From NCBI GenBank assembly GCA_035084275.1, contig CM068771.1:4216001-4280000 (forward strand): a DNA stretch of 64,000 nucleotides, read 5' to 3'. The notes under the pieces are model-generated. The model worked only from the letters and a program-made list of their open reading frames with translations. It did no database searches and was not told the origin of the DNA. Origin of the DNA: Hydrolagus colliei (taxonomy: Eukaryota). Of the stretch, positions 11,901 to 41,894 are shown in pieces (position 1 is the stretch's first letter; each line of letters opens with the position of its first letter). The position numbers and the translations under genes are program-made.

Positions 11901-13236
11901 CCGCACACATCCTCACTTCCCCTCACCTCCACACACCCTCATGTCTCCCCCCACAACACACATAGTCACATCTCCCGCACACACCCTCAAACAACACTCC
12001 TCACACAAACCTCCACATAACCCACAAACACCCTTACAGCTCTCCCCCACACACCTGCAAATTGCTCAGCCAAACACACCCTCATATTCCCCCCACCAAA
12101 CACACTCACACCCGAACCCTACACACCCTCAGTCACAACTCCCCCACCACACACATCCTTGCATTCCTCACCCACACATATCCCCCCATACACACCCTCA
12201 TATCGCCTCCACACACGTCAAACTCCACCCACTAAACCCTCACATAACCCTCACATCCCCCTCCACAAACACACCCTCATATTCCCCCTCCACACTGACA
12301 CACCCCAGTCCACACACATTCCCCCCTCCTCCTCCCCCCCAACACACACCCTCACATCCCATCACACACTCATCCCCAACACACACATTTCCCACCCCCA
12401 CACATGCTCATAATCCCCTCCAGACTTATATCATCCCCACACACCCTCACATCCCACCCCTCACACACACCCTCACAAACTCCCACCCCTCACACACATG
12501 CACATCACCCCCTCTTCCTCTCCCCTCCACACACACCCCCACATCACCCCCCCCCCCCCCCCCCCCCCCACACCCACAGACTCTGAGCCTATGTGTTGGA
12601 TTCTGTTCCCAGGAGATGTCAGTGTTTGACACAAAGGCTTCTCTCCCGAAGCTGAAGATCATCTTATTGATAATTGTCAATGTGTCCGACATTAATGGTC
12701 TGGTTCTCACTCTAGTTACAGTCACTCTGGATCCTGACACAGCCCATCCCTGGCTCATCCTGTCTGAGGACCTGACCAGTGTGAGAGATGGAGACACATG
12801 GCAGCCGCTCCCTGACACCCCAAAGAGGTTTAGTAAAGATCCCATTGTCCTGGGGTCTGAGGGCTTCACATCAGGGAGACATTACTGGGAGGTGCAGGTG
12901 GGGAACAAGACACAGTGCATTGTGGGATTGGCCAGAGAGTCTGTCAACAGGAAACAATGGATCACATGGTCACCAGAGGGCGGGGTCTGGGGGGTGGAGC
13001 TGTGGGGCGGGGCCTATGAGGCTCTGACGTCACCCCGCACCCCCCTGCCCCTGACAGTGAGACCCGGGAAGGTCGGAGTTCACCTGGACTATGAGGGGGG
13101 ACAGGTGTCAGTTTACGACGCTGATCACATGTCTCATCTCCACACCTTCACCCAAACTTTCACTGAGAAACTCTATCCTCTCTTCTATCCCGGGTTTGAT
13201 TCTGAGCCTCTGACAATCTGCCCAGTGACTGGTTAA
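5867..13236 (+). CDS. Butyrophilin-like protein, copy A (intact, ~455 aa). Exons 5867-5924, 7083-7430, 7635-7910, 9319-9438, 10190-10207, 11051-11077, 12716-13236
   Basis: All introns GT-AG and phase 1; exon lengths sum to 1368 nt with no internal stop; SP-IgV-IgC-TM-short exons-B30.2 is the canonical BTN/BTNL architecture. An additional mini-exon cannot be excluded. Confidence 0.88.
6536..6930 (-). mobile_element. Older CR1 3' fragment (paralog 34630-35025)
   Basis: Translation [18 protein letters not shown]...[11 protein letters not shown]...FKTEIDRFL is a CR1 ORF2 C-terminus followed by the shark-type 3' tail. Confidence 0.8.
7083..7430 (+). CDS. BTN-A IgV exon
   Basis: ERFTV...VVLDC...EVRWFR...[21 protein letters not shown]...; flanked by ag| and |gtcagt; 348 bp. 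Confidence 0.92.
7635..7910 (+). CDS. BTN-A IgC exon
   Basis: GLGSQPWIH...[16 protein letters not shown]...[10 protein letters not shown]...KCLIHN; ccag| and |gttggt; 276 bp. Confidence 0.92.
7965..8272 (-). mobile_element. tRNA-derived SINE in a BTN intron (paralog ~36060-36363); many further SINE/L2 3' fragments occur throughout the window
   Basis: Same head and tail motifs as the other SINE copies. Confidence 0.6.
8385..8500 (-). mobile_element. CR1/HE1-type 3' tail fragment (paralog ~36473-36590)
   Basis: taagaattaggagcaggagtaggcc...ccattcaataagatcatggctgatc motif typical of chondrichthyan CR1/HE1 ends. Confidence 0.65.
9319..9438 (+). CDS. BTN-A transmembrane exon
   Basis: [40 protein letters not shown]; gacag| and |gtacgt. 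Confidence 0.88.
10190..10207 (+). CDS. BTN-A 18-bp juxtamembrane mini-exon (DLEKTV)
   Basis: Pyrimidine tract + cctccag| and |gtaagt; phase-1 frame preserved; conserved in B (DLEKTI). Confidence 0.7.
11051..11077 (+). CDS. BTN-A 27-bp mini-exon (GWKRICRCA) preceding B30.2
   Basis: ttggttctag| and |gtaaga; resembles the W-R/K-R-containing 27-bp exon typical of butyrophilins; identical in B. Confidence 0.78.
11740..12575. repeat. C/A-rich low-complexity intron tract before the B30.2 exon; expanded in B (39990-41235) with ~24-bp (CACACACACCCTCACATCCCCCTA)n units
   Basis: Visible low complexity; the apparent ORFs over it are P/H/T-rich artefacts. Confidence 0.85.
12716..13236 (+). CDS. BTN-A B30.2 (PRY-SPRY) terminal exon
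   Basis: [12 protein letters not shown]...[18 protein letters not shown]...[16 protein letters not shown]...KLYPLF; acceptor tctag at 12715; stop TAA 13234-13236. Confidence 0.93.
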
Positions 13237-14247
13237 TCAGGAGGAAAACGCTGAGACATTGACTAGGTTCACAGGTTGGTGGAGTGGGGCTGGGGTGGGG
13301 GGGGAGGGGGTTGAGTGGCCACTTTAAGATGAGAGTTGGCTTTGGGTCAGTATCAATGGGGGGGGGGGGGGGGCTTGTCCATCGCCTTGGCAACCAACCG
13401 CTGACAGGGTGTGAGAGCGGCAAGAGGGCCCCATGTGTTGCGGTTGCTGGGAGGACTGACTGAGGTCCTCCTCATGGCTTTCCCTCCCATCTCTCATTAA
13501 ATGGTGAGGGGGCGGGGGGAGATAGGGACTGAGCCCCCACCAGCCCTCACCACCCACCGTCTATTTGACTGTTGTAACCGCGAGGTTTGGATGGAGCCGA
13601 GTGTTTGATTCTGGGCTTTTCCCCCAGTTTTGAGCTGAGTCTGAGACAGGAATCAATTACAATGAAAACTTCATCACCAGCTGGTCTCTGGGCTTGTGCT
13701 GAGAGAATCTGAGCTTCCATCAGTGTGTGAGCTCACACGGTCTGAGACAGGGATATCGGCTGATATCTTCCTCTTCAGCAATGCCCAGTCTCACAGTCGG
13801 GGGCTGGGCTCAGAATCTCACTGAAATCTCCCAAATCACTTTAGTGTCTATAAACAAGGTGACACATTCTACTCTAGCGTCAGCCTCGTCTCACTGTGTA
13901 TAAACAATGTGTAATGTGTATTTTCAGTGACTACTTTTATAATCTGTGTAACATTTCTCATTCACTGTAACAATCACTCAAGACCTTTAACCCTCATTAA
14001 ATCAATGTCCCGTTGTCTAGTCAAGTTGATATTATTACAGAAAATATTGTCATTGATTTGCAAAATACAAGAGCAATTAACAATAAATCATGTTATGTCA
14101 TTATTTTATGCCCAATGATTATACACACTCTACACACTCTCCTCGCCCTCCCCCTCCCTCTCCCATCCCCACCACCCCCGAAACACTCAGACACTGATAC
14201 ACACACCACTGACCATCAACCCCTGATACAAGAACACAAACAAGTTA

Positions 14248-14771
14248 CAGGTAGACCCCACTTAACGTCGCCTCGGTTAACGTACTTTCGTTATTACATT
14301 GCTGATACATTGGAAACACACAAATATCCCTCCCCGACCGTGGAGGATACGTTCCTGAATCCCCCGCCCCCCCCCCCCAAGTGATTAGTAAAACCATGGT
14401 TGGCAAATACAAGGCCAACCGCGTGTCTGGTTGATGTAACTGGGTCATCGCACCAAACTCTAGTGTTAGTGTTGAAACCCATGGATGCGCAAAATTCACT
14501 GCCGCGGTTGGCAAAGGTTGTCGCAGAGAGGAAACCACGGATACGGAGTGGGCAGCGAGAGAGATCATCAGTGAGTGAGTGAGCCAGGAAGGCAGTCAGG
14601 GAGTGAGTGTAATGGGTTTGTTTTTGGAAATTTTTGACGAAAAATGTCCAAAATAACCTAAATCCAGTTTTAACATTCATTCTTATGGGAAACATGTAAT
14701 CACTTAACGTTGTTTCGCTTAAAGTCGCACTTTTCAAGAACCAAACTACGATGTTAAGCGGGGTCTACCTG
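14248..14771. mobile_element. Tigger/pogo-type MITE with TA TSD, unit A
   Basis: TA|CAGGTAGACCCCACTTAACGTCG ... CGATGTTAAGCGGGGTCTACCTG|TA. Confidence 0.9.
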
Positions 14772-16203
14772 TACATTTTCACAGCATCTTTCATGTCAGG
14801 AGGACGTCCCTAGGCGCTGACAATCAGGGATCCCCACCTGATCTGGTGTTTGGGATCAGGAGGGGTGGAGGACAGGGAGGGGAGGGTAAGAGGTTTACCA
14901 ATGGCACGGTTGAATAGGGGGGTCTTCAGATGCGGCTTGAAGGAAGCAATGGAGGGCGTGAGGTGGAGAGACTGAGGGTGCGTGCAGAGAGGTTGATAGT
15001 TCACCTGCCAATGAGAGGGCGGAGCAGTTGATCGAGTTGTTATTACTGTATCATTGTCTTCAAGCTACTTGTGCACTTCTTATGAAGCTTTGCCTGATTT
15101 TCTGCTGTTTCCCACCCTTTTCCCCAAAAATGTCAGTTCACATTACAAACCGTTTGATTTGTATTTCTAACTAACCCCAGCACTTTCCGGAAGTTTATTT
15201 GATGTTTTAAGCTTTTTTCCAGCACTTTCTAGAAGTTGATCACCAGTAGGCACCTTCACGTGAACGTTTGGCTAATTTCCATCTGCACTTCCATCTTGAA
15301 ACATCCGTTGATTTGTATAAATTTCACACATGTTCACATTGAAATAATAATAACTTCACATTAACTTACGTTCAACGTCAAGGTGTTTTGAACAATTTTA
15401 ATGAAGATTTGGCTGATTTCCAGCTGTGTCTTAAAACGTTCCCAAAATTTCAACAAATATTCAGAACAATTTGATCTGAATTTCCAGTTTATTAGAGCAC
15501 TTTCCAGGAGTTTCAGCGAATTTTCAGCTGTTTTTCCAGCACTTTCTAGAAGTTACAGTAGTCATCAGTAGTGCCCAGCCCACTTTCATGTGAACTTTTG
15601 GCTCATTTCCAGCTGCATATTTTTTAAATATGTGTTGATTTCCATCAATTTAGCACATTTCAATTCACTTTACAGTATATTCTGTGAAGCGCTTTGTTAC
15701 GTCGATAAGACATGAAAAAGCGCTGTATCAAATGCAAGGATTATTATTATTATTTTTATATTAAACTTACATTCGACTTCAAGATGTTTGTTACCCATTT
15801 ATATTACCCATTTCTGACACATAATGAATATCTGTCTGATTTCCGAAAGTGTCTTAACACTTTCTTCAAGTTTCAACAAAAGTTCCAAGCAATTTCCCTC
15901 TTTTCCCCCCTTTCTCCCTTGACCCCACTTCCGTGACTGTTTATCGGACGCTGCCGTGCGCAGTTTGGCTGCCACGTTTCGCCCACAAATATAGTCAATT
16001 CTCCTCTCCTTCATCCTACCCCAACCCCTCCCCCCCTTCTCTTGTCCCTACCTGACTGTACAGCGCCTTGGGATGTCCTCTCAATGTGAAAGGCGCCACG
16101 TAAATGTAAGTTTTGATTGATAGATTGATTGTTTGTTTGATTGATTGATTGATTGATTGATGGATCAATCAATCAATCGAATGAATGAATGAATGTCCAA
16201 TGG

Positions 16204-16227
16204 TTTCCAGAACTTTCTAGAAGCTTT
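16204..16227. promoter_or_regulatory. Perfect heat-shock element TTCcaGAActTTCtaGAA (copy B 44864-44887)
   Basis: Four contiguous inverted nGAAn units; further HSEs at ~16647-16671 and ~16688. Confidence 0.8.
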
Positions 16228-16969: not shown

Positions 16970-17103
16970 GGTCTGAGCCCCTCCCCCAGGTCTGAGCCCC
17001 TCCCCCAGGTCTGAGCCCCTCCCCCAGATCTGAGCCCCTCCCCCAGGTCTGAGCCCCTCCCCCAGGTCTGAGCCCCTCCCCCAGATCTGAGCCCCTCCCC
17101 CAG
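16970..17103. repeat. 19-bp minisatellite (GGTCTGAGCCCCTCCCCCA)~7 upstream of HSP70-A; ~9 units in B (45627-45799)
   Basis: Visible tandem units; copy number differs between copies. Confidence 0.9.
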
Positions 17104-17819: not shown

Positions 17820-19673
17820 ATGGCCCCAGCGATTGGCATCGACCTGGGCACCACCTACTCGTGTGTGGGTGTGTTCCAGCACGGCAAGGTGGAGATCATC
17901 GCCAACGACCAGGGCAACCGCACCACACCCAGCTACGTGGCCTTCAACGACACCGAGAGGCTGATCGGCGAAGCCGCCAAGAATCAAGCAGCCCTCAACC
18001 CCCCCAACACCGTCTTCGATGCCAAGAGGCTGATCGGGAGGAAGTTCGATGACCCTGTGGTGCAGGCGGACATGAAGCACTGGCCTTTCCAGGTGGTGAG
18101 CCAGGGGGGCAAGCCCAAGGTGCAGGTTGAGTACAAGGGAGAGTCCAAGACGTTCAACCCCGAAGAGATCTCGTCCATGGTTCTGACCAAGATGAAGGAG
18201 ATCGCCGAGGCTTATCTGGGCTCCAGAGTCACCAACGCTGTCATCACGGTGCCCGCTTACTTCAACGACTCCCAGCGCCAGGCCACCAAAGACGCCGGGA
18301 TGATCGCGGGGCTCAACGTCCTTCGCATCATTAATGAGCCCACGGCAGCCGCCATCGCCTACGGTCTGGACAAGAAGGGCCAGGGGGAGAAGAACGTCCT
18401 GATCTTTGACCTGGGTGGAGGCACCTTCGACGTGTCCATCCTCGCCATCGACGGCGGGATCTTTGAGGTCAAATCCACAGCCGGTGACACCCACCTGGGG
18501 GGCGAGGACTTTGACAGCCGTATGGTCGACCACTTCATCCAGGAGTTCAAGAGGAAAAACAAGAGGGACATCAGCCAGAACAAGAGAGCAGTCAGGAGGC
18601 TGAGGACAGCCTGCGAGAGAGCAAAGAGGACTCTGTCTTCAAGCACCCAAGCCAGCATTGAGATCGACTCACTGTTTGAGGGAATTGACTTCTACACCTC
18701 CATCACCAGGGCACGGTTTGAGGAGCTCAATGGAGACCTGTTCAGAGGAACCCTGGAGCCAGTGGAGAAAGCGTTGACAGACGCCAAGCTGGACAAGTCT
18801 CAGATCCACGAAGTTGTCCTCGTCGGTGGCTCCACTCGCATCCCGAAGATCCAGAAGCTTCTACAGGATTTCTTCAACGGCCGAGAGCTGAACAAGAGCA
18901 TCAACCCGGATGAGGCAGTGGCCTACGGGGCAGCTGTGCAAGCCGCCATCTTGATGGGCGACAAGTCTGAGAATGTGCAGGATCTGCTCCTGCTGGACGT
19001 GACTCCTCTGTCCCTGGGTCTGGAGACAGCGGGAGGCGTCATGACCTCCCTCATCAAGAGAAACTCAACCATACCCTCCAAACAGACCCAGGTCTTCACC
19101 ACCTACTCCGACAACCAGTCCGGTGTCTTGGTGCAAGTCTACGAGGGCGAGAGAGCCATGACCAAGGACAACAACCTCCTGGGCAAGTTTGAGCTGAGTG
19201 GAATCCCCCCGGCTCCCCGCGGGGTCCCGCAGATCCAGGTTACCTTCGACATCGATGCCAACGGCATCCTTAGTGTCTCGGCCGCTGACAAGAGCACTGG
19301 TAATGAGAACAAGATCACCATCACCAACGAGAAGGGCCGGCTGAGCAAGGAGGAGATCGAGAGGATGGTGCAGGAGGCTGAGAGGTACAAGGCGGATGAT
19401 GAGACGCAGCGGGAGAGGGTGATGGCCAAGAACAAGCTGGAGTCATTCGTCTACACAGCCAAATGTGCGATGGAGGACAAGAGCATGGAGGGCAAGGTGG
19501 GAGAGGAGGACAGGCGGCAGGTGCTGGACAAGTGCAAACAGGTCATCAACTGGCTGGATGGAAACCAGACAGCGGAGAAGGAAGAGTTTGAGCACCAGCT
19601 GAAGGAGCTGGAGAGGGTGTGCAGTCCTGTCATGGCCAGGCTGAGGCAGGGAGGGGCAGAGGGCGGTCAGTGA
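17820..19673 (+). CDS. hsp70: Intronless inducible-type HSP70, copy A, truncated at R618 (617 aa, lacks C-terminal EEVD)
   Basis: [38 protein letters not shown] and [14 protein letters not shown] signatures; no introns; no GGMP repeats; TGA at 19671 replaces CGA of copy B; the downstream frame still encodes [16 protein letters not shown]. Confidence 0.95.
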
Positions 19674-19832
19674 TCAGGCAAGAGCTGCCCATCTACCGGC
19701 CCAACCGTGGAGGAAGTCGATTAAACGTCAGCCGATGGACTTCCTGCCCCTTTGGCTTTTCTGTACCTGCTCAGGTGTTAACCTTTCCCACCTTCAGACA
19801 CTTTGGGATATATGTATAAATGATAAACGTAT

Positions 19833-21058: not shown

Positions 21059-22578
21059 TTAAACTTTTTTATTGAAAAGTTCTCTCAAGTCGGACTGTAC
21101 GAGATCAGCGTGGCGTCGCTCTCTGATGCTCGCAACGATGTCGTTAAGTGCGTTCGAAAACTTGTTGTAGAGTCCGCTCTTTAGTAAGAAGCGTTCAGCC
21201 TCTCGCAGGCCAGTCAGAGCTGTGCTGGCTGTCACAGGCGAGGCCCCATTGTCCTCAGAGTCGCTGTCGCTGCTGTTCTCGACTAGTAGGCGCTCGGCGG
21301 CAACAGCTTCGGCCACGATATTCTCCTGACCTTGCGGATCACGGCAAGGTAGATCAGAGTCAATGTCCAGGAACTGGTCAGCGATCTGCCTCTCGCCCTC
21401 GGCCTCTGTGCTTGTCTTCTCGTCAGCCTCAGCACGGGGAGCAGCGTCACCAGACGCAAACCCTGCCTTTGCGAAGCAATTGGATATCATCGCAGGCTCC
21501 ATGCTCTCCCAGGCCCTGGCAGCCATGCCGATGGCATCCAGCAGGCTGATGTGTCTGGCCATCTTTCCCACCGAGGCCTGGGGGATGATGGTGTTGCTGT
21601 CAATGGCGTCGAGGAGGCGATTCCGTAGCTCCTCGCGGTAGGAAAGCTTCAGGTGTCGGATGATTCCTTGACCCATGGGTTGGATCATGGTGGTGTCCGG
21701 GGGAATCAGCTCCAGGCAGATGTTCTTAAGCGTTGGGACGGTCAGATGACACGGTGCGCTGTCCATGAGAAGAAGAATTTTACGCCCCAGGTTGACCAGC
21801 TCTGTGTCCCACTGCACCAGCCACTCCTTAAATATCGTTCCTGTCATCCACGCCATTTTGTTGGCCTTATAGGTGACAGGCAGAACGGCGCAGTCGACTC
21901 CCTGCATACAGCGAGGGCGCTGGCTCTTCCCGATGACCAGCAGTTTGCGCCGGTCATGTTGGCGCAGACCATCAGCGTGACACTGTCCGTCGCTCCCTTT
22001 ACACCACTCGGCTCAGTCGGGTGCAAATACGAGCCGTTGGGCACCGCGCGATAGCGCAGCCCCGTTTGCTCCGCGTTGTAGATGGCATCGGGGGCATAGG
22101 AAGAGAGCAGCACGGTGCGGGAGTTAGCGCCCTCTAGGCCAGCGCTCCTCAGCTCTCCGGGAAACAGCCTGTACACTATGTTGTTACGTGCCTTCCAGCG
22201 GCTAAACCAGCCGTCGGTCACGGTGAACCCCGGCTTCCCGAGCTCGTGCGCCAGGCTCTGCGCCTTGGCTTTGAGGATGGGCCCATTGAGCGGCTGCCCC
22301 TCGGTGGACGCCCTTTGGAACCACAGGAGGAGAGCGAGCTCCACCTGGGGATCTTTGCCTTTGCGATCCCTCTTCTTACGCAGACCCACGTCGCCCTCGG
22401 CCAAGGTGGCCGCTGTCCGGCGCAGCTTCGTCTCACTGGCGACGAGGTCACCCAGCGTCGACTTCTTGACCCCGAGCCTCCTGGCCAGTTCTCGCAGGGG
22501 AGTCCCCCGCGGCTCCAACTTGACCCTGTCTAACACTTCTATCTTCTCCAAAAGTGTCCGGGACATTTTCTTCGACAT
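21059..22578 (-). pseudogene. Tigger/pogo transposase-derived (TIGD-like) gene, copy A, frameshifted by a 10-bp deletion at ~21955
   Basis: N-terminal HTH (psq-like, CENP-B-type) and DDE_1-like halves split over ORFs 21844-22578 and 21059-21907; ccggtc-gcag-ccggtc of copy B collapsed to one ccggtc. Confidence 0.88.
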
Positions 22579-22699
22579 TATGGCTTCTTATGTGTTGAGA
22601 GGATGACACAAGTTTAACAATAGAAAATAATACTTCCGATGTCTCAAATGGCTTCACAGGTCTTTTTTTTTGGGGGGGGTGGGGTGGGGGGGCGGGAAG

Positions 22700-29066: not shown

Positions 29067-32000
29067 ATGATCTGGAAACGGTGTATTCAGGTCCTGTGGC
29101 TTGTGCTCCCCCTCTCTCTGGCTGGTAAGGAAACATGTTGAATCTGTTTGGTTTCTGCTGATCATAGAATCATAGAATTTTACGGCACAAAAGGAGGCCA
29201 TTCGGCCCATCTAGTCTGTGCCGGCTCTTTGAAAAGAGCGATTCAATCCCATTACCCTGCCCGCTCCCCATAGCCTAATAGACCCGTTCTCCCTAAATAA
29301 AGATCTAATTCCCTTTTAAAAGTTGTTATCGAATCAGCCTCCACCACCTTTTCAGGCAATGCATTCCAGATTCGAACAACTCGCTGAGTGAAAAAATTTC
29401 TCCTCAGCTCCCCTCTACTGCGCCTTGAAACTATTTTAAATCTGTGACCACGAGTCACAGATTCACCCACGAGTGGAAATAGTTTTTCTCTATTTGCCCT
29501 GTCGAAACCCCTCATGATCTTATAAACCTCTATTAGGTCTCCCCTCAATCTTCTCTGCTCCAGAGAGAATAACCCTAGCCTATCTAGCCTCTCCTCATAG
29601 CTGAAGTCCCTCAATCCTGGCACCATCCTAGTAAATCTCCATTGTACCCTTTCCAATGCCTTCACATCCTTTCTGTAGTGTGGTGACCAGAATTGAACAC
29701 AGTATTCCAGCTGAGGCCTCACCAAAGTCCTATAGAGGTTAGTCAGCACTTCCTGACTTTTGTACTCTATACCCCTATTTATAAAGCCTAGTATCCCATA
29801 TGCCTTCTTAACAGCCTTGTCTACCTGTCCTGCCACCTTCAACGAGTCACTAACACAAATCCCCAGGTCTCTCTGTTCCTTCACACCATTTAAAATTGTA
29901 CTATCTAGCCTATATTGCCTCCCTTCATTTCTTCTCCCAAAATGCATCACCTCACACTTCTCTGCATTAAACTTCATCTGCCATGTGTCTGCCCACTTTA
30001 CCAATTTGTCTATATCCTCTTGCAGATGGCTACTATCCTCCTCACTGTTTACTATTCTCCCTAACTTAGTGTCATCTGCAAACTTGGAAACTGTACTCCG
30101 TACACCCAAGTCCAGATCATTGATGTAGATTACAAACAGCAATGGTCCCAAAACCGATCCCTGTGGCACACCACTGCTCACTTCCCTCCAATCTGAAAAA
30201 CAGCCGCTCACTACAACTCTCTGCTTTCTGTCTCGCAGCCAGTTGTGGATCCACGCTGCCACTGTCCCTTTTACGCCATGGGCCTTTAATTTCATAATAA
30301 GTCTCTCATGTGGCACTTTGTCAAATGCCTTTTGAAAGTCCATGTAAACTACATCAACTGCGCTACCATTATCAACCCATTCCGTTACCTCATCAAAAAA
30401 TTCTATCAGATTTGTAAGGCAAGATTTGCCTTTAACAAATCCATGTTGACTGTCCTTTATTAGCCTATATCTTTCTAAGTGAAGATCTACCTTGTCCCTG
30501 ATTATGGACTCTAGAAGTTTGCCCACTACCGACGTTAGACTGACTGGTTTGTAGTTACCAGGCTTGTCCTTCTGCCCCTTTTTATACAAGGGAGTAACAT
30601 TAGCTATCCTCCAGTCCTCTGGCATGACCCCTGTGTCCAAGGAAGATTGAAAGATCGTGGCCAGAGTCCCTGCTATTTGCTCCCGTGCCTCACTTAGTAA
30701 CCTAGGGTGCATCCCATCCGGACCAGGTGACTTATCCACCTTGAGCGACGTCAACCTTTTTAGCACTTCCTCTCTGGTTATAATTATTCTATCCATTTCT
30801 CCTACCCTCTCCTCTAATACCATGGCATTGGCTGTATCATTTTCTTTTGTGAAGACAGAGGCGAAGTACTCATTCAGTACATCAGCCATGCCCTCTGCCT
30901 CCACAATGAGATTTCCTCCTAGGTCCCTAATTGGCCCCACCCTCTCCTTGACCAACCTTTTACTCTTAATATGTTGGTAAAAAACCTTAGGGTTCCCCTT
31001 AATCTTACTCGCTAATTGTTTTTCATGCAGTCTCTTTGCCCCTCTAACTTCCTTTTTTAGTTCTATCCTACACTTCCTATATTCTGCTTGGTTCCCTTCT
31101 GAATTTTGAGCCTGACACTTATCATAAGCCTCTTTTTTTTGTTTGATTTTGGCCCCGATTTCCTTAGTCATCCAGGGAGGTTTGGATGCCTTACATTTCA
31201 CCTTTGTGGGGATGCTTTTGACCTGTGCCTGAACTATCTCCTCTTTGAACGCTGCCCACTGCTCGTTAGTTGTCTTACCTGCCAATTTTTCTTTCCAATC
31301 CACCTTGGCTAGGTCCCACCTCAACTCATTGAAATTAGCCCTTTTCCAGTTGAGTGTCCTCACCTGTGATCGTTCCTTATCCCTTTCCATAATTATTCTG
31401 TATCTAACGATATTGTGGTCACTATTCCCTAGATGCTCACCTACAGAAACCTGTTGAACTTGCCCTACCTCATTTCCCAAAACTAGATCCAGCAATGCTT
31501 CTTTCCTCGTTGGACTGGAAAAGGGAGGACCTCTCCATTCTGGTTTGTGTCCATAGGAAAGTGCAAAAGTTCCAAATGACATTTGTGTCTCTTTGCGACC
31601 AGGGCTCACTATGTCTCCTCATCCTTCTTGATCTTCCCACGGCCACTAACATGGTTGACCACTTTATCCTTCTCCACTCCCTTTCCTCTCAGCTCCATGT
31701 TCGTGGCTCTGTCGTTTCCTGGTTCCGTTCTTACCTTTCCCATCGTCTCCACTTTGTTTCCACCAATGACTTCTCCTGTATCCCACGCTCCATCACATGT
31801 GATGATATCCAGGGTTCTTTACCTGGTCCTACCCTTTTTAATATTTACATTCTCTCGCTTCCGGATGTGGGTGACAATCAACTCTGTCTCTCTGCCTACA
31901 AGGCCGTACGCAGGGGGGGTGCGACGGGTGCGTACGCACCCCCCCAAATTATAAAAGGTCCACATTTTCCGGGGAAGAGAATTGCATTTTTTTATCAAGT

Positions 32001-35000
32001 TTAAATACCAAGTAAATTTATTGAACATTTGAGTAACAATCAGTTCTTCAAAACTATATATAAATTATAAACTCACATCTTTGAATGATTTAGTATTAAT
32101 ATAAAATTATCGAGTCGCACACCAGAATCGGCGTCTACGCCAAAACATACCGCGTCGATAGACCAGTCCATGACGTGGCGAGTCTGTGACTCATGATTGG
32201 ATAAACATAGGCGCCAAGACTCAAATCCTCGTTTGGAAATCATCCCGTAAACAGCCACAAGGGGCAGCACCAATTCTGGAGTTAAAATCATCTTTTCATC
32301 TGATCACCGTAAGTAAAAATGACTCAAGTTTTGAGAGGTGTGACTGTAATGCTAGCAAACAATGACAACATATTTACAAGCTTCTGAGAAATTAAAGCTT
32401 TTGAGAACCCAACAAAAAAGTTATATGCTGGACGGGAATGCCTATCTTTAAAAAAAATACTCATGGACATAGACCTATGCTTTAGCGCCTATTCCACGTG
32501 GTGTGTCAATCGGAAATCATCCCGTATACAGTCACTACATAAAAAGGTAGCACCACTTTGTGGAAGCTGAAATCGTATTTTAATCTGATAATGTTAGCAA
32601 TTGATAATAGTGCCTTAGTACATTGTCAGACAGCTCAGAGCGCTTCACAGAACGTACTGTAAAGTGGCCAGTTTTTGCCCAGGATTGTCCCACAAACACC
32701 GATGGAGTGAGTCACCGATTTTATTTGGGGGCGTTTGTTGGCCAGGACAACAGGAGAGAGACTTCCCTCCGCTTTTCGAGTAGTGTCAGAGGATCTTTTC
32801 ACATCCATCTAAACAGACGGATCAGACCTCGGTTCAGCATCTCAACCAAAAGAACAGCCTCTAACCCCCCCCCCCCCCCCCCACAGCACCACATTGAAGT
32901 GTCAGCTTCCTCTGTGTGATACCGAGTGCCGACGTGGGGTTTGAACCCACAACTTTCTGACTCAGAGGCCAGAGTGCTATTCACTGTGCCAGGCGACTCG
33001 CCAGGTGATGCTGCTGTCTTCTATCACCTGTGGGAAACTTTCTTTCCCTCCTACTCAGTGCCTCTGAATCTGAAGACATTCCCAAGGTCGAGGTTGCATA
33101 TCTGACTGATTGACAACTGAGATTTATTTTCAGGGTTTGTGGGCAGTGTCACGTAATTGGCTATAACTTAAAGGATTGTTAACCTGCACCTGTTAGAGTT
33201 GAGGTCCCCAGAACTGCTGCCTCACACCAGCGGGATATAAAGGACAGGTGCAGTCGAGTCTGCAAAGCAACAGCTCTTCCTACACAAATCTCTTCAACGT
33301 GACTCCTCTGAAAGTCACTCTTTCTCTCTTTGAATAATAATATAATCCGTGCATTTCATGTATCGATGTAGGTTAGGGTCGGTCTACCTCGTGTTCTGTG
33401 ACCGTGCAATGGTTCCCATAGGATAGTAGGACTATGGACAGTTTCCTCCCGGCTTCTCCAGCTATGTCCGCTAAACCTAAGACGCCTCTGCGGTAATGTC
33501 TGTGATACCAGTGTGGTAGTGTACCATATAGCTCACTATTTGTCAGATGCTGTCGCCAGTAAACGTTCAGGGCGTCTCTTAGAAGCCTGGTATGTACCTC
33601 ACGAGTCACCTAATCTCCTGGGTTTGCCTAAGTGTCCAGCATTCTGCTCCGTATAGGAGCGACTTTCAGCCCTCGCGTTAATGCACATTCATTATAATAT
33701 GGAAATCGATATTGGTAGAGCGGTTGACGTATTGGCTTCAAAGCGACCAAGGCGTCTCGAATACGGAACGCTATTAAAGAATTAATTTCCCCTCCCTTAT
33801 TTTTTCAAGTATTTTTTCGTCAGATCAGTATTGCTTGATGGGTCACTGCCTTTCATTTTGATTCTAAATAAATAAATAAAAACTAACTACACTATTGCTC
33901 ACAGTTCAACGATATTTTCAGGATAATGCTGATAACAGGCTTGTAACACGTGTGAATTAACTGTTTGACACTGATTTTCAGTATCTGTATATTTTCTTGT
34001 CTTTTATAAAATTTGCTTTGCTGGAATATCTGAGCACATCATTCATACTTTACTCTTACATTATTGTTCATTACAGTCCGAAAGAAGTTTAGTCTTAGGA
34101 TAACAATGCAGAACAACTTATTAATTACCGTCAATCTGTAGTTTATGATCATTTTCTCTATACGCATACATTTATCAAGCATTCGTCATTGTACTGTGTT
34201 AATTGGATTGTAATTTACTTTATCGTTCGCATTCCTTACATCATCGAGTCAACAATCGTGTTGGCTTTTATCGGCGAACACATTCGACCTTCCCAATTAG
34301 ACACGGACTACCGGGGAAAATAAAAACACTGAATAAATAATGATGCTCTTAAACACCAAGGGCATAAATACAGTTCATATTGGATCTTCTGAATCGATTA
34401 AATAAGACCTCAAACTGTGTAAAACGTCGGAGCCTTGAGGGGGCTTCGGGGGCAGCCCGCAAGCCCCCGGCCATTGTTGGTCCCATCACTAGCAATTCGC
34501 ACCCCCCCAAAAAAAATCCTGCGTACGGCCCTGACAAGACCAATGCTCTACTCCTTTGCTTCCATCAGCATCTCTGCACCCCGGGCACTGACGGCATCAA
34601 TATTCGTGGATGTACTCTCCACCACCAATACATAAGAACATAAGTATTAGGCGCAGGACTTGGCCATTTGGCCCCTCAAGCCTGCCCCGCCATTCAATAA
34701 TATCATGGCTGATCTTCAAATCTAACTCCACCTATATGCCTTATTCCCATATCCCTGAATCCATTTGTCCATAAGAAACTGTCAATTTCAATCTTGAATA
34801 TGCTAAGGGATTGAACATCTACAGTCTTTTGGGGTAGAAAATTCCATAAATTCGCTAGCCTCTGAGTGCAGAAGTTTTCCCTCAACTCAGTGTGAAAAGG
34901 CTGACCCCTATTCTTAAGACTATAACCCCAACCAGGATTACCAACCAGGGGAAACAGTCTCCCACTGTCTACTCTGTCATGGCCCTTAATAATCTTATAG

Positions 35001-38000
35001 GTTTCTTTCATGTCACCTCTCATTCTTCAAATGCAAGGATTATTATTATAGTTCAATTGCGGCTGCCAAAGAGAACTTCTACTTTATGTTAGTATGTCAC
35101 TGACTTTCTATTGATAGTTATTCTGAGACAATGTGACTGAAAATCCTAACCATTGTCTATTGTTTGTTACTGAACAGAGAGATTCACAGTCAATGTTCCC
35201 AGTCACCCTGTCCCAGCCATTGCTGGATCAGATGTTGTCCTGGACTGTAAGTGTTCCACAAAGCTGCCATTAGAGGGCGTGGAGGTGAGATGGTTCAGGG
35301 TGAGATTCAACTCCCCTGTGCACTTATTTAAAGAGGGACATCATCAACTGGATATACAGGATGAAGCCTATAGACACAGAACACAACTGTTTGAAGATAA
35401 GTTTATCAATGGTGATGTGTCTCTCATTCTGGAAGATGTACGGGGGACAGATCATGGAGAGTACACGTGTTTCGTCAAGTACGACGGATGGTATGAACAG
35501 GGAGTGATAGAGTTGAAAGTTACAGGTCAGTAATGTTTACAATTCCTTTTATTACATGTGATCAGTGTGTGCAAGAATTCACTAATCTTTAATATGTTCA
35601 AACTACAATAATTTCTATGAACAAGAATGTCCGTTTATTCAGAATGTTGTAGATGTGTTTTCAATAAGTTACTGCACTGTAATGTCCCGGGTAAAATATT
35701 GTCTGATTCATGTCTCCTGTCTCTTCCAGGCCTTGGCAGTCAGCCTTGGATTCATGTTGAAGGACAACACAATGGTGGTGTGAGGCTGTTGTGTGAATCC
35801 ATTGAATGGTTCCCAGCACCAGAGGTTCTGTGGTTTGATGATCAGGGAAACAAATTATCAACACTCAGTAACTTGACAATCAAACAGGATTCTAAAGGTC
35901 TCTTCAGTGTTAAAAGCCAAATAGAAATAATCCATTCAACCAACAAGATCAAGTGTCTGATTCATAATTCAGAAAATGAACAAGAAGGAAAACTCCAAAT
36001 CTTGGGTTAGTAAACACAGTAAATATTAATGTTGGTCTGAAAAATATGATGTAGATTTATTATAATAACTCTTGCATTTGAAATAACACTTTTCACATTT
36101 TCTATACATCTCAAATTGCTTCACAGAATATACTGTAAAATATATTGGCTGTGTATACATGGGCGAAACGTGGCAGAAAGTTGTGCACAGCAGTGTCCCT
36201 CAAACAGCTGTGTATTAAAATAACCAATTATTATTGTGTCTTTTTGAGGGACTATTATTAGCTGTGCAGAGTAAGGAAACTTGCCCAAAGTTTCACCCCA
36301 CCGGGAATCAAACTCACATCTCGCGCTTGTCAGGGGAGTGCTCTAATCACTGAGCTACAGGACTAAAGTATTGTACAGGACTTCACTTGATGTGTTGTAC
36401 AACACATGAAGTGAATACACATTGGTCTGGATGATACGGTCTGTCTAATTTCATCCTTTCAAAATATGACACGTAAGAATTAGGAGCAGGAGTAGGCCAC
36501 TCGGTCGCTCGAGCCTGCCCCACCATTCAATAAGATCATGGCTGATCTATTCTAACTCCATCTACCCGCGTTATCCCCATTCCATTCATCATCTCCTTTA
36601 TCTCTCTATTATCCCTCATCATCTTTAATAACAACTATTTACATTTGTAAATTGCCTTTCACATCGAGATGACGTCCCAATGTGGAAGATGCTATAAAAA
36701 GTCAAAGATTTGGTCATGAGCTGGGGGATAGGGTCAGGAGGGATGGAAGGCAGGTGGGTGGGAGTAGGTGGGTGACCGAATGTATGGTCAAAGTGGTGGG
36801 TGTTGAAGGTGAGAAGGGACAGCCCGAGGTGGAGGGACTGTGGATGGGGTTCCAAAAATACCTCCGTACTCCAGCCCACCCAACCTTCCTGTTAATTATG
36901 CTAGTTGCTTATTACGTTAGGAATGAATAAATACTGAATGTCAACGTGACTGAAGCCCTCCTGTCAACGCCTTCACACCTCAGGTACTGGCAGCATCAAC
37001 AGCAACAACAAATTACATTTATAGAGCGCCTTTCACGTCCCAAGGCGCTGAATGTACAACCTCCATGGTTGTACATTCCATATCAACAAACCAGTCAGGA
37101 ACCTAGATGTCTTGTTCTATCCTCAACTGTCTTTCCTTCCCCACTTACAAGCCGTGACTCATTCTGCCTTCAATCACCTCCGCAACATTGCCCAACTCCG
37201 CCACTAGGTCACCCCTCAGGCCGCTGAAACTGTATCCAATACGATACCAGGCTTCACTTTGATTGAAGCCTGTGGTAGCGACTGAGCTATTGAGTGTAAT
37301 ACAGTAACATGGGGGTAAATGTAGACATTTAGTGTTTGATATCAGAATAGATGTTTGAATGTATATTTACATTTCTTGACAGATGAGTTCTTCCCCAAAG
37401 TGCCAGTGGGTTTGGTGGTCTCCTCACTGCTCTTAGGACTTGCCATAATAGTGCTGAGTGTTCTTGTCGTCTACAGTGTAAAACAGCACCGAGAGATCAA
37501 AGGTACGTTTCCGTCAGTAACATCCCTCAACTTAACACTGTGTTACTGTTTGTGTGAGAATATGCAAGTTCTATAAATCAATTGCTTTCTCCCTTCACTC
37601 AGTAACCACCTGGCCTGTTTCATGTCACTGCCCTATTCTTCCCCCCATCAGCAAGTTAGGCTTTCAACCTATCTGTCCCCACTCTCTGGAACTCAATCCA
37701 ACTGTCTTTTCGAATCAGTCTTTCCAAATCACTGCCACATCATCCCATTCTGAAAGATGCTCTATAAATGTCATTTTGTTGTTGTTGTTTAGTAGGCCCC
37801 TTCTCACTGACTCACTGGAGAAAATAAAACAGCGTCTTAGACTACCACAGCTTGGCTAAATTATTAATTATTGCAGTATTATCTCATCGCTCGCTCCTCT
37901 CTCCCTTCTCTCGTCGAACGCTCCAGTCTTCTCTTATCACTCGCTCCACTCTCCCTTCTCCGCCTAAGGCTGCATCGCGCAAGGGCTGTGAACTCCAATA

Positions 38001-41000
38001 TGCAGACGAACCAGCCAGCGCGTGTACGCACGTTACTCAATAAAGTCACGCATTTTTTCCTTCGCGCATGTTTGAGTTCACAATTGAGAAAGTTGCGATC
38101 GACGAGTGCCTACTGTAACTCTGTTGAGCTTTATTCTGCGTAGTGTATTCCTTGTTGTTGTTGTAAACAGGTAGTTTGACCACTAAATAATACTGTATTC
38201 AATATTGGTTTCTAACAGTTTTGCTTTGTATCCTCCAGATCTTGAGAAGACAATTGGTAAGTCATCAAAGTAAAATAACAATCTCATATTATGATTACTC
38301 TCACTCACAAGGTTCACACAAATCAGACGTAAGGTGGTGTTACAACACTTCTGTTTGCCAACAAAAGGCAAAGTTACTACACTCTCCTGTCAACCTGGGG
38401 AAATGCTCATGGGGAGCCAAATCAAATTCAAGGATTATTATTATGGTATAATGTTAACTTGCAGTTCTTTAGCGCTCTCCACGCAGGGTAGCATCTCAAA
38501 GCACTTAAGAATGGCGGAGCCTGACTGTGGTCTGGTGGGGCGGTTGGGCCGTAAGCATGTAGGAAAAGGAATGTTTTAAGGCAGGTCTTAAGGGGAGATG
38601 GGGAGCAAGGCAGAGGGATTGAAAGAGAGTGTTCCATTGTTTCGGGGATCGGTCGCTGAATGTATAACCGCCAAAGGTGGAGAGGAGGGAAAGTTCGCTG
38701 GGAAGTTGACATGTATATGAGATACATGATAAGAGATTTGAAGGAGTATATGGAAAGGGCAGAACAGCTGCTTTAAGAACAGATTGCTTTAATAATTCTT
38801 ACAAACTAGATATTTCACATCATTAACTGTTCCTTTTCTTCGCTGAGACAACAGTGGCTTGTCAATATACACACATTTCAGGGAGGGGGTGGGTTGGATA
38901 GAATGAGCAAGTTTGTCAGTAACACAGGGAGTGAGCCAATGATGGAGGGATGGAGGAAATGAAAGAAGAAGGTATTGAGAGAGAACAACAACAATATTGC
39001 ACTTATATAGCGCTTTTCACGTCGGGAGGACGTCCCAAAGCGTCTCCCAAAACATTGCCTGAAAAGGTGGTGGAGGCTGATTCGATAACTTTTAAAAGGG
39101 AATTAGATCTTTATTTAGGGAGAACGGGTCTATTAGGCTATGGGGAGCGGGCAGGGCAGTGGGATTGAATCGCTCTTTTCAAAGAGCCGGCACAGACTAG
39201 ATGGGCCGAATGGCCTCCTTTTGTGCCGTAAAATTCTATGATTCTATGATTCTAAGGGAGTGATTTGGGAGCTACATAAGGTTTGATCACTTCTCTCTTG
39301 GTTCTAGGGTGGAAGAGGATTTGTAGGTGTGCAGGTAAGAGTCTGACTGCTAAAGGAACCTGACTCCCCCCCAACCACCCCGCCACACACTCACATTCCC
39401 TCCCCACCCACCCCCCACACACATGGACTCAATCCCCACCCACACACATACTCCCGCTGAGGATGGTGTGGGGGTATGTGATGGTATCTCACACACCATC
39501 ACATACCCCCACACCACTCACACACACTCACATCTCTCTCCCACACACACCATCAAATCCCCCCGACACACACATCACCTCACTCCACACCCCCCACACA
39601 ACAACAAATATTACATTTCAAGATCGCCTTTCACATTGGGAAGATGTCCCAAGGCGCTGAACAGTCGGGTCAGGACCCGAGCAAGGGGGAGGGGCAAGGT
39701 GGGTGGGGGGAGGGGAGGGAGAGAGTTGGGAGGGCAGCTGATGGCACTGACCAAGAGGAGAGTCTTGAGACTGGCCTTGAAGGAGGTGAAGGGGAAGTGA
39801 GGTGAAGGGACTATGGGATGGAGTTTCAGAGTGTGGGGGCAGAGGCTGAAAGCCCGGCCACCAATGGGAGGGCAGATCAAGCGGAGAACATGGAGCAGAC
39901 TGGAGCCCGGGGTAGGCAGGTTGATAGGATGTCAGCTGGTCAGAGAGATAGGAGGGGGCAAGGTAGTGAATCATCTTGAAAGTGAGGACAACACAAACAC
40001 CCCCCCCACAATGCACATAACCTCACAAGCCTCCAACACAACTCTCCCTCCTCCCCCCGCCCCCCCCCACAAAAACACACACACCCACAAACACCCTCGC
40101 ATTCCCTCCCAACACACGCCCTCACATCTTCCCTCTGGCCCCCCCACCGCCGCACACATCCTCACTTCCCCTCACCTACACACACCCTCATATCTCCCCC
40201 CACAACACACATAGTCACATCTCCCGCACACACCCTCAAACAACACTCCTCCACATAACCCACAAACACCCTTACAGCTCTCCCCCCCACACCTGCAAAT
40301 TGCTCAGCCAAACACACCCTCATATTCCCCCCACCAAACACACTCACACCCGAACCCTGCACACCCTCAGTCACAACTCCCCCACCACACACATCCTTGC
40401 ATTCCTCACCCACACATATCCCCCCATACACACCCTCATATCCCCTCCACACACGTCAAACTCCACCCACATAAACCCTCACATAACCCTCACATCCCCA
40501 CACACACAGCCTCACATTCCCCCTCACCCACACACCCTCACATCCCCCCTACACACACACCCTCACATCCCCCTACACACACAGCCTCACATCCCCCCTA
40601 CACACACACACCCTCACATCCCCCTACACACACACACCCTCACATCCCCCTACACACACACCCTCACATCCCCCCTACACACACACACCCTCACATCCCC
40701 CCTACACACACACACCCTCACATCCCCCTACACACACACACCCTCACATCCCCCTACACACACAGCCTCACATTCCCCCTCACCCACATACCCTCACATC
40801 CCCCCTACACACACACACCCTCACATCCCCCCTACACACACACACCCTCACATCCCCCCTACACACACACACCCTCACATCCCCCCTCCACACTGACACA
40901 CCCCAGTCCACACACACCCTCACATTCCCCCCTCCTCCCCCCCCCCAACACACACCCTCACATCCCCCCCCAACACACACCCTCACATCCCATCACACAC

Positions 41001-41813
41001 TCACCCCCAACACAAACATTTCCCACCCCCACACATGCTCATAATCCCCTCCAGCCTTACATCATCCCCACACACCCTCACATCCCACCCCTCACACACA
41101 CCCTCACATCCCACCCCTCACACACATGCACATCACCCCCTCTTCCTCTCCCCTCCACACACCCCCCCCACATCACCGCCCTCCTCGTCCCCCCCCCCCC
41201 CCCCACATCACCCCCCCCCCCCCCCCCCCACCCACAGACTCTGAGCCTTTGTGTTGGATTCTGTTCCCAGGAGATGTCAGTGTTTGACACAAAGGCTTCT
41301 CTCCCGAAGCTGAAGATCATCTTATTTATAATTGTCAATGTGTCCGACATTAATGGTCTGGTTCTCACTCTAGTTACAGTCACTCTGGATCCTGACACAG
41401 CCCATCCCCGGCTCATCCTGTCTGAGGCCCAGACCAGTGTGAGATACGGAGACACATGGCAGCCGCTCCCTGACACCCCAAAGAGGTTTAGTGTCTATGC
41501 CATTGTCCTGGGGTCTGAGGGCTTCACATCAGGGAGACATTACTGGGAGGTGCAGGTGGGGAACAAGACAAGGTGGATTGTGGGATTGGCCAGAGAGTCT
41601 GTCAACAGGAAACAACCGATCACATGGTCACCAGGGGGCGGGGTCTGGGGGGTGGAGCTGGGGGGCGGGGCCTATGAGGCTCTGACGTCACCCCCCACCC
41701 CCCTGCCCCTGACAGTGAGACCCGGGAAGGTCGGAGTTCACCTGGACTATGAGGGGGGACAGGTGTCAGTTTACGACGCTGATCACATGTCTCATCTCCA
41801 CACCTTCACCTAA
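29067..41813 (+). CDS. Butyrophilin-like protein, copy B, C-terminally truncated (~428 aa). Exons 29067-29124, 35178-35525, 35730-36005, 37383-37502, 38239-38256, 39308-39334, 41374-41813 (ancestral stop at 41892-41894)
   Basis: Same exon lengths and splice sites as copy A; CAA->TAA at 41811 removes the last 27 aa of B30.2; the intron between SP and IgV exons carries CR1 and hAT-like insertions. May be a pseudogene. Confidence 0.82.
29163..31519 (-). mobile_element. Young 5'-truncated CR1 LINE with an uninterrupted ORF2 fragment (C-terminal endonuclease region + RT), present only in unit B
   Basis: ORF 29252-31609 contains [31 protein letters not shown] and FADD; (ATTCTATG)n 3' tail at 29163; absent at the matching site 5962 in unit A; ~3-bp target deletion, no TSD. 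Confidence 0.95.
31899..34533 (+). mobile_element. Non-autonomous hAT-like DNA transposon (2.6 kb), unit B; replaces ~90 bp of flank, no TSD
   Basis: TIRs CAAGGCCGTACGCAGG ... CCTGCGTACGGCCCTG; absent in unit A at 6345-6430; carries a DeuSINE and an RTE fragment. Confidence 0.9.
32600..32997 (-). mobile_element. tRNA-derived DeuSINE (SacSINE1/AmnSINE1-like) carried inside the hAT-like element (also 54563-54960 and ~59083-59480, + strand)
   Basis: A/B-box head (TGGCACAGTGAATAG, GGTTCAAACCC), Deu-like core ggatcttttcacatccatc...gacctcggttcagcatctc, L2-like tail. Confidence 0.7.
35178..35525 (+). CDS. BTN-B IgV exon
   Basis: 348-bp paralog of 7083-7430, open frame. Confidence 0.9.
35730..36005 (+). 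CDS. BTN-B IgC exon
   Basis: 276-bp paralog of 7635-7910, open frame. Confidence 0.9.
37383..37502 (+). CDS. BTN-B transmembrane exon
   Basis: Same translation as copy A TM exon. Confidence 0.87.
39054..39253 (+). mobile_element. 200-bp 3' fragment of the same young CR1 family, unit B only
   Basis: Nearly identical to the 3' end of the 29163 element, ends attctatgattct; unit A has the empty site caaaac|aagggag at 10996. Confidence 0.92.
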
Positions 41814-41894
41814 ACTTTCACTGAGAGACTCTATCCTCTCTTCTATCCCGGGTTTGATTCTGAGCCTCTGACAATCTGCCCAGTGACTGGTTAA
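41374..41894 (+). CDS. BTN-B B30.2 exon with premature stop at 41811-41813
   Basis: acc taa act in B versus acc caa act in A; the downstream frame still encodes [26 protein letters not shown]. Confidence 0.9.

What the first reader, a model, noticed from the sequence alone, without database searches (positions are those of the whole stretch)
12716..41894. B30.2 domains of the two BTN copies differ only at amino-acid-changing codons
Seen (by-eye alignment of 12716-13236 vs 41374-41894): about 20 substitutions in 15 codons, none silent. Changes are W/R, DL/AQ, D/Y, KDP/VYA, QC/RW, W/P, E/G, W/G, R/P, Q/stop and K/R, several with 2-3 base changes per codon. The neighbouring HSP70 copies differ at only ~4 of ~1900 nt. 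Known: B30.2 variable loops are ligand-binding and positively selected in TRIM5alpha; BTN3A1 B30.2 binds phosphoantigen; human BTN3A3 restricts avian influenza. Inference: diversifying selection, or conversion from other paralogs, on an intracellular sensor domain.
Basis: partly seen in the sequence, partly recalled or inferred. Interest (0 to 1): 0.8.

Follow-up and report, generated by a model that had tools for sequence, protein, structure and literature searches.

The report
Butyrophilins and TRIMs share sensor domains
In what is likely a chimaera (cartilaginous fish) genome, most of eight tandem butyrophilin immune genes have near-identical outer parts but differ in their inner B30.2 domain at the predicted ligand-binding face, and that domain is up to 98% identical to the one in neighbouring TRIM ubiquitin-ligase genes, likely because the two gene families swap it by gene conversion while selection diversifies it.

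Summary
Observation confirmed: 20 substitutions in 15 codons, none silent (14 missense, 1 stop). The HSP70 yardstick misleads: in this pair IgV, IgC and introns differ as much (2-5%). The pair belongs to an array of 8 butyrophilin+HSP70 units. Five units have identical IgC and TM exons and 0-5 nt IgV differences, yet 2-25 nt B30.2 differences. Of 25 variable codons among 7 array B30.2 exons, 22 change the amino acid, 1 is a stop, 2 are silent. Variable sites map to TRIM21-Fc and BTN3A1-pocket positions (7 of 12, p=1.6e-4). Site models (own code) give omega about 4.5, also in TRIMs alone and per segment; a tree-free test agrees. New: the array's B30.2 core is 94-98% identical to that of three neighbouring RING-Bbox TRIM genes whose flanks do not align, closer than to other butyrophilins (70-91%); butyrophilin monophyly is rejected (AU p=0.002); 41 of 45 array codon variants occur in TRIM-type exons. 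Best reading: a shared, positively selected B30.2 pool exchanged between the families. Unresolved: selection on the butyrophilins themselves versus passive import. The phosphoantigen pocket is absent; expression and read support are untested.

The parts
5867..5924 (+). BTN copy 1 (array unit 4) leader exon
   Evidence: tblastn with C. milii BTN proteins; GT donor, frame checked
7083..7430 (+). BTN copy 1 IgV exon
   Evidence: Pfam V-set; AG/GT ends
7635..7910 (+). BTN copy 1 IgC exon
   Evidence: Pfam C2-set_3, butyrophilin IgC; AG/GT
9319..9438 (+). BTN copy 1 transmembrane exon
   Evidence: spliced model, hydrophobic stretch matching C. milii BTN
10190..10207 (+). BTN copy 1 18-nt juxtamembrane exon
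11051..11077 (+). BTN copy 1 27-nt juxtamembrane exon
12716..13236 (+). BTN copy 1 B30.2 (PRY-SPRY) exon, intact; predicted 455-aa protein in all; core 98.0% identical to a TRIM exon at G000:C38:4495649
   Evidence: Pfam PRY+SPRY; model pLDDT 93.9, TM 0.96 to TRIM21 2iwg
17820..19724 (+). intronless HSP70, copy 1; stop at codon 618 removes the last 17 residues including EEVD
21059..22587 (-). Tigger/DDE_1 transposase remnant carried in the repeat unit
   Evidence: Pfam DDE_1; repeated in all 8 units
29067..29124 (+). BTN copy 2 (unit 5) leader exon
29252..31618 (-). LINE-type reverse transcriptase ORF inserted in intron 1 of copy 2 only
   Evidence: Pfam RVT_1; single in the array
35178..35525 (+). 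BTN copy 2 IgV exon (13 nt from copy 1)
35730..36005 (+). BTN copy 2 IgC exon (8 nt from copy 1)
37383..37502 (+). BTN copy 2 transmembrane exon (identical)
38239..38256 (+). BTN copy 2 18-nt exon
39308..39334 (+). BTN copy 2 27-nt exon
41374..41894 (+). BTN copy 2 B30.2 exon with premature stop at B30.2 codon 146 (window 41811), which cuts off the last two predicted strands; probable pseudogene or truncated form
46506..48410 (+). intronless HSP70, copy 2, full length ending EEVD
   Evidence: Pfam HSP70
49728..51267 (-). Tigger/DDE remnant, copy 2
63549..63606 (+). leader exon of the next BTN unit (unit 6), which continues beyond the window

Best explanation
These are two of eight tandem butyrophilin genes whose cytosolic B30.2 exon varies mainly at the predicted ligand-binding face and is up to 98% identical to the B30.2 exon of neighbouring TRIM genes, likely because gene conversion keeps exchanging short tracts of that exon between the two families while positive selection retains new binding-face residues. 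Shown: the array, the gene models, the divergence pattern, the exon-limited BTN-TRIM identity, omega above 1 at a small site class. Inferred: conversion as the exchange route (the array exons keep butyrophilin-type first codons, last codons and flanks, so the swapped part lies inside the exon); the duplication and homogenisation that keep IgC, TM and HSP70 near-identical; pathogen pressure as the selective agent. Proposed function (untested, about 0.35): an inside-out sensor, with a variable cytosolic domain that binds pathogen-derived molecules and a constant ectodomain read by a fixed partner such as a gamma-delta T-cell receptor, so that one repertoire of binding surfaces feeds two outputs, ubiquitination by TRIMs and a surface signal by butyrophilins. 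HSP70 is probably a passenger of the duplicated unit.
For: Array of 8 BTN+HSP70+Tigger units, 22-34 kb apart. Units 1-4 and 8: IgC 0 nt, TM 0 nt, IgV 0-5 nt, B30.2 2-25 nt apart; 25 variable B30.2 codons among 7 exons, 22 missense, 1 stop, 2 silent-only; HSP70 of the same units 9 of 11 variable codons silent. M2a vs M1a on 47 exons LRT 307, omega2 4.5; TRIM-type exons alone LRT 236; 9 non-array BTNs LRT 29; three segments with their own trees LRT 107, 105, 7. Tree-free: in the array pN 0.161 at six TRIM21-contact positions vs exon pS 0.017 (bootstrap 0.015); 10 of 17 variable sites fall in the top 20 sites learnt from 27 distant TRIM-type exons, p=1.7e-6. 7 of 12 literature contact positions vary in the array, p=1.6e-4. 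Exchange: copy 1 vs TRIM at 4495 kb 98.0% in the core and identical over 126 framework codons, flanks unalignable; other BTNs 70-91% although their upstream intron aligns at up to 94%. Two TRIMs with RING exons 72% alike have B30.2 96.9% alike. BTN monophyly rejected, AU p=0.002 (core) and 0.015 (framework only). 41 of 45 array codon variants present in TRIM-type exons; identical tracts 147-169 nt with TRIMs vs at most 68 nt with non-array BTNs. A silent change at codon 162 is shared within a 15-nt motif by unit 1 and the TRIM at 4424 kb; a shortened C-terminal loop is shared by 10 BTN and 8 TRIM-type exons. 73 of 253 site pairs fail the four-gamete test.
Against: Site models are my own code (fixed branch lengths, NEB, single-step codon model) and are inflated by recombination and multi-nucleotide changes; the third segment is weak (p=0.03). 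The 26 'hypervariable' codons removed for the framework comparison were chosen after seeing the data. Monophyly of the 7 array exons is not rejected (AU p=0.097), so repeated exchange rests on shared motifs, and convergence at selected sites can mimic it. Within the hypervariable codons pN does not clearly exceed pS in the array alone (bootstrap 0.05). The array's share of variants at hypervariable sites is not significantly above that of the TRIMs (25:8 vs 16:11, p=0.26; vs 53:39, p=0.09). Copy 2 carries a stop. Direction of exchange is not established. No expression, read or population data; no ligand known. C. milii proteins intermingle only with weak support.
Confidence: 0.75

Rival explanations
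1. Passive import: selection acts on the TRIM genes; the butyrophilin copies only receive variants by conversion. Because the donors differ almost only at binding-face codons, neutral import would look like 'no silent changes'.
For: 41 of 45 array codon variants occur in TRIM-type exons; TRIMs alone give omega2 4.8; variant composition not distinguishable from donors; copy 2 has a stop.
Against: 6 of 7 readable array exons are intact; diversity persists where IgC, TM and HSP70 are homogenised; 9 non-array BTNs, which share only short tracts with the array, show omega2 2.7 at codons 24, 81, 94, 101; trend towards enrichment in the array (odds ratio 2.1-2.3, not significant). This rival keeps the exchange and drops only BTN-specific selection.
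Confidence: 0.35
2. One recent replacement of the exon core in the array's ancestor by a TRIM-derived sequence, followed by independent point mutation and convergent selection, with no ongoing exchange.
For: Array monophyly not rejected (AU p=0.097); framework tree unresolved.
Against: Multi-base motifs and a silent change are shared between particular array copies and particular TRIMs; units 3 and 4 group with two TRIM-type exons with starred support; identical codons rather than only identical residues are shared.
Confidence: 0.12
3. Assembly or polishing artefact: reads from TRIM paralogs were mixed into BTN exons, or the array is falsely duplicated.
For: Near-identical repeats; a 200-N gap in unit 7; no read check was obtained.
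Against: Units differ in length and insertions; each exon has its own combination including rare variants, the opposite of majority polishing; independently assembled C. milii BTN and TRIM domains are also about equally close across families (framework 89-93%).
Confidence: 0.06
4. Relaxed constraint or local mutation hotspots in decaying duplicates.
For: Stop in copy 2; stop in 5 of 8 HSP70 copies.
Against: Framework under purifying selection (omega0 0.14-0.28); variable sites recur across 47 genes and match known contact positions; silent sites nearly invariant in the array.
Confidence: 0.04

Closest known systems
Zebrafish NLR-B30.2 family (bioRxiv 10.1101/027151; passages read)
   Same: B30.2 exon under positive selection and converted across gene groups whose other domains stay distinct; short tracts proposed to reshuffle substitutions.
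   Different: There the conversion runs between groups of one family, and most NLR B30.2 domains are closer to each other than to TRIMs; here the exchange crosses families (membrane receptor vs E3 ligase) at up to 98% nucleotide identity.
Teleost finTRIM, btr and trim35 expansions (PMC2657112, PMC3137616; passages read)
   Same: Expanded RBCC-B30.2 genes near MHC-type genes, positive selection in the variable loops, recombination breakpoints; an exon shuffle between finTRIM and NLR inferred.
   Different: The shuffle is described as an event in the families' ancestry; no butyrophilin partner in the passages read. Here the exon ends and flanks stay family-specific, pointing to conversion inside the exon.
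Human BTN3A1/BTN2A1 phosphoantigen sensor (PMC4303140 passage; PDB matches)
   Same: IgV-IgC-TM-short heptads-B30.2 layout; same fold (TM 0.94 to 4n7i); the pocket positions are among the variable ones.
   Different: The basic pocket is absent (positions carry C/D/Y, I, T, E, P/R, Y/S); hypervariable rather than conserved.
Chicken BG genes (PMC8813856; passages read)
   Same: Butyrophilin-family tandem array with copy-number change, recombination hybrids and selection for diversity in the intracellular part.
   Different: BG lacks IgC and B30.2; its selected part is a coiled-coil tail.
Callorhinchus milii butyrophilin-like and TRIM (A33/NF7-like) genes
   Same: Nearest named relatives (IgV 56-77%, RING-Bbox up to 83%), same architecture; three BTNs look orthologous across the two species.
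   Different: Automatic annotations only; not the same species (best IgV 77%); no selection or conversion analysis found in print in my searches.

Membership tests
Butyrophilin (BTN) | Leader, IgV and IgC ectodomain | tested here: met
   Pfam V-set and C2-set_3; leader by C. milii homologs
Butyrophilin (BTN) | Single TM, short juxtamembrane exons, B30.2 in one exon, open spliced frame | tested here: met
   7 exons with canonical splice sites, 455 aa in copy 1; stop at residue 429 in copy 2; C. milii relatives 452-459 aa
Butyrophilin (BTN) | Expressed at the cell surface, engages gamma-delta TCR or a partner BTN | not testable with these tools
   No RNA holder listed; no binding data
BTN3A1-type phosphoantigen sensor | Basic pocket H351, H378, K393, R412, R418, R469 | tested here: not met
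   Residue list from PMC4303140, mapped through a C. milii BTN to BTN3A3 alignment to positions 41, 68, 83, 101, 107, 157, which hold C/D/Y, I, T, E, P/R, Y/S
TRIM21-type Fc receptor | W299, D355, W381, W383, F450 contact set | tested here: not met
   Equivalent positions 12, 68, 94, 96, 160 hold W/R, I, E/W, W/V/G/R, F/Y/S; the D355 equivalent is Ile in all 7
Class IV TRIM (RBCC-B30.2), for the neighbouring donors | RING, B-box, coiled coil, B30.2 | tested here: met
   Pfam RING and B-box and colinear exons against C. milii P0079 for the genes at 4424, 4487, 4495 kb; several other 'TRIM-type' exons (e.g. 2214-2315, 3560, 5225 kb) are classed by splice-acceptor type only
Positively selected B30.2 recognition modules (TRIM5, finTRIM, NLR-B30.2 type) | omega above 1 at a minority of sites on the binding face | tested here: met
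Positively selected B30.2 recognition modules (TRIM5, finTRIM, NLR-B30.2 type) | Binds or restricts a pathogen | not testable with these tools
   No ligand known
MHC-linked region | Linkage to classical class I/II, TAP, PSMB, class III genes | tested here: inconclusive
   7 of 11 MHC-I family matches lie on the same contig, 1.9-3.2 Mb away, and 9 near-identical HSP70; class (classical or not) and other markers not tested

The most novel reading that the evidence does not exclude
Chimaeras keep one germline repertoire of pathogen-binding B30.2 surfaces that is continually shared by gene conversion between TRIM ubiquitin ligases and butyrophilins, so that a specificity won in one family is wired both to intracellular destruction and to an inside-out surface alarm through a constant ectodomain: diversified butyrophilins as polymorphic cytosolic pathogen sensors for T cells, an MHC-like logic with the variable site inside the cell.
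Probability: 0.3. Interest if true: 0.85.

Novelty: new variant of a known kind. Interest (0 to 1): 0.64.

Why it matters
What butyrophilin B30.2 domains bind outside the primate phosphoantigen case is open (PMC12841164 argues for unknown partners). Here near-identical paralogs differ at about 20 binding-face codons on a constant scaffold and share alleles with TRIM ligases, which gives a natural panel for ligand discovery and a test of whether butyrophilins were variable cytosolic sensors in early jawed vertebrates. It also shows that B30.2 trees can mislead BTN/TRIM orthology, and that dN/dS above 1 in one family can be imported from another.

Tried and rejected
HSP70 as neutral yardstick: rejected for this pair. 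Loss of B30.2 in unit 7: cannot be claimed, a 200-N run lies where the exon should be. Loop clustering by secondary structure: no enrichment (64% of variable sites in coil vs 54% overall); several selected sites are on strands, and coordinates of the model were not available for a 3D clustering test. Expression and second-individual evidence: no RNA holder listed and no read lay was obtained, so both stay open. Array monophyly test: not rejected. Test for BTN-specific selection: not significant. C. milii protein tree: mixing of families but mostly unstarred; several C. milii models have gaps or errors. First gene model had three exon borders mis-set by me and was corrected. Earlier findings of the scan: none. 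Complex prediction not run: no candidate partner. Phosphoantigen and Fc binding rejected on residue grounds.
Full report
Observation. Randomly placed substitutions rarely give this (no silent codon 0.28%, 15 or fewer codons 0.024% of 100,000 draws), but counted as 11 events the pair alone gives p=0.03 and Nei-Gojobori counts p=0.11. The HSP70 figure is right (4 of 1905) but is not the yardstick: between the same two copies IgV differs 3.7%, IgC 2.9%, introns 2.1-4.9% and B30.2 3.8%, while the 3' flank differs 0.7%. Copy 2 has a divergent 5' half, a LINE-type insertion in intron 1 and a stop in B30.2.

Anatomy. Each copy is a seven-exon butyrophilin: leader, IgV, IgC, TM, 18-nt and 27-nt exons, B30.2, with canonical splice sites and 455 codons in copy 1. 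All 36 proteins found with the IgV exon are from Callorhinchus milii, at 56-77% identity, so the genome is likely another holocephalan (inference). The window is G000:C38:4216001-4280000. Neighbouring stretches show 8 units of BTN, intronless HSP70 and a Tigger remnant, 22-34 kb apart. Unit 7's B30.2 falls on a 200-N run and was not readable; unit 6 has a different IgV (81%). The contig also holds 7 of the genome's 11 MHC class I family matches, 9 near-identical HSP70 genes and dozens of further B30.2 exons (309 candidates, 150 scored genome-wide).

The real contrast. Units 1-4 and 8 have identical IgC and TM exons and IgV exons 0-5 nt apart, yet their B30.2 exons are 2-25 nt apart. Among the 7 readable array exons 25 codons vary: 22 change the residue, 1 is the stop, 2 are silent only. 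In the HSP70 of the same units 9 of 11 variable codons are silent.

Selection. I aligned 48 B30.2 exons from C38: 16 tied to butyrophilins by Ig/TM exons or acceptor type and 32 with a TRIM-type acceptor; one disrupted TRIM-type exon was dropped, and split or partial exons were left out. My own M1a/M2a implementation (fixed branch lengths, F3x4, NEB) on 47 exons, codons 5-156, gives LRT 307, omega2 4.5, sites 12, 24, 28, 40-42, 66, 81, 88, 94, 96, 101. It holds for 31 TRIM-type exons alone (LRT 236), 9 non-array BTNs (29), the array (68) and segments with their own trees (107, 105, 7). Recombination inflates such tests, so I added tree-free ones: 10 of 17 array-variable sites, and 8 of the pair's 14, fall in the 20 most variable sites learnt from 27 distant TRIM-type exons (p=1.7e-6, 4e-5); at six positions fixed beforehand from TRIM21-Fc contacts array pN is 0.161 against exon pS 0.017 (bootstrap 0.015); within the top-20 codons pN exceeds pS only marginally in the array alone (0.05) and clearly with four close TRIM-type exons added (0.008).

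Where the sites lie. The model is confident (pLDDT 93.9) and matches TRIM21 and BTN3A1 B30.2 (TM 0.96, 0.94). Mapping TRIM21-Fc contacts (PMC4670481, passages; alignment) and the BTN3A1 pocket (PMC4303140, one passage; alignment to BTN3A3 through a C. milii BTN) gives 12 positions, 7 of which vary in the array (p=1.6e-4) and 4 in the pair (p=0.011). The pocket's basic residues are absent, so this is not a BTN3A1-type phosphoantigen sensor. There is no simple loop enrichment.

Exchange with TRIM genes. The closest B30.2 exons outside the array belong to RING-Bbox-coiled-coil genes at 4424, 4487 and 4495 kb. Copy 1 is 98.0% identical to the 4495-kb exon over codons 5-156, more than to five of its six array siblings (95.0-96.3%), and identical over 126 framework codons (set chosen after seeing the data); introns and 3' flanks do not align. 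Other butyrophilins are 70-91% identical in the core although their upstream intron aligns at up to 94%. Two TRIMs with 72% identical RING exons have 96.9% identical B30.2. Butyrophilin monophyly is rejected (AU p=0.002; framework only 0.015). 41 of 45 array codon variants occur in TRIM-type exons, identical tracts reach 147-169 nt with TRIMs against at most 68 nt with non-array BTNs, a silent change sits in a motif shared by unit 1 and one TRIM, and a shortened C-terminal loop is shared by 10 BTN and 8 TRIM-type exons. The array exons keep butyrophilin-type first and last codons, which favours conversion inside the exon over exon shuffling. Against: array monophyly is not rejected (p=0.097); direction is unknown; C. 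milii proteins mix across families only with weak support, while three BTN lineages look like stable orthologs outside the exchanging pool.

What stays open. Because TRIM donors differ almost only at binding-face codons, neutral import could by itself give the no-silent pattern in butyrophilins; the array's variant composition does not differ significantly from the TRIMs' (p=0.26, 0.09). Expression, read support and population variation are untested (one search lists no RNA holder). The functional model, a variable cytosolic sensor behind a constant ectodomain, is inference from BTN3A1 inside-out signalling and from TRIM-type B30.2 evolution.

Comparison and novelty. Selection plus conversion of B30.2 exons is described for zebrafish NLR-B30.2 genes, within that family (10.1101/027151, passages); selection, recombination and an ancestral finTRIM-NLR shuffle for teleost TRIMs (PMC2657112, PMC3137616, passages); intracellular diversification for chicken BG (PMC8813856, passages). 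PMC12841164 (first quarter and passages) lists chondrichthyan butyrophilins and has no occurrence of TRIM, positive selection or conversion in its main text. Searches (listings only, open-access library; supplements not read) showed no paper on BTN-TRIM B30.2 conversion; subscription papers are not covered. Verdict: a real feature, a new variant of a known kind; interest 0.64.

Noticed in passing
window 17820-19724; G000:C38 HSP70 at 4186605, 4211097, 4233820, 4295125, 4318895: 5 of the 8 array HSP70 copies share a stop at codon 618 that removes the last 17 residues including the EEVD co-chaperone motif (role of EEVD recalled), while the rest of the frame varies almost only silently: a spreading truncated variant or young pseudogenes.
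   Followed up: partly
G000:C38:5354192-5361151 (L088, L089): A butyrophilin (IgV, IgC, TM) is followed by a B30.2 exon with a TRIM-type acceptor; C. milii P0029 and P0030 show the same junction residues: likely an older capture of a TRIM exon by a butyrophilin.
   Followed up: partly
G000:C38:2214000-2331000: TRIM-type B30.2 exons alternate with MHC class I alpha2-like exons (5 matches), suggesting a co-duplicated class I + TRIM unit.
   Followed up: no
G000:C38:4040169-4045369 (L107): A butyrophilin with IgV and TM but no IgC match; its C. milii counterpart P0007 (365 aa) also lacks IgC.
   Followed up: partly
G000:C38:4283951-4284298 (unit 6, just beyond the window): Unit 6 joins a different IgV exon (81% identical) to array-type IgC, TM and B30.2: a recombinant ectodomain.
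   Followed up: partly
G000:C38:4622261-4622945, 4647281-4648234, 4666185-4666957: Three B30.2 exons are split at about the same place (near codon 25) by inserts of different length: insertion or new intron.
   Followed up: no
G000 contigs C265, C36, C336, C509 and others: A second large group of B30.2 exons (about 72-76% amino-acid identity) on many other contigs; gene type not examined.
   Followed up: no
window 31899-34533, 53033-55660, 57851-60186: A 2.6-kb element occurs in inverted orientation in intron 1 of copy 2 and downstream, with partial tandem copies.
   Followed up: no
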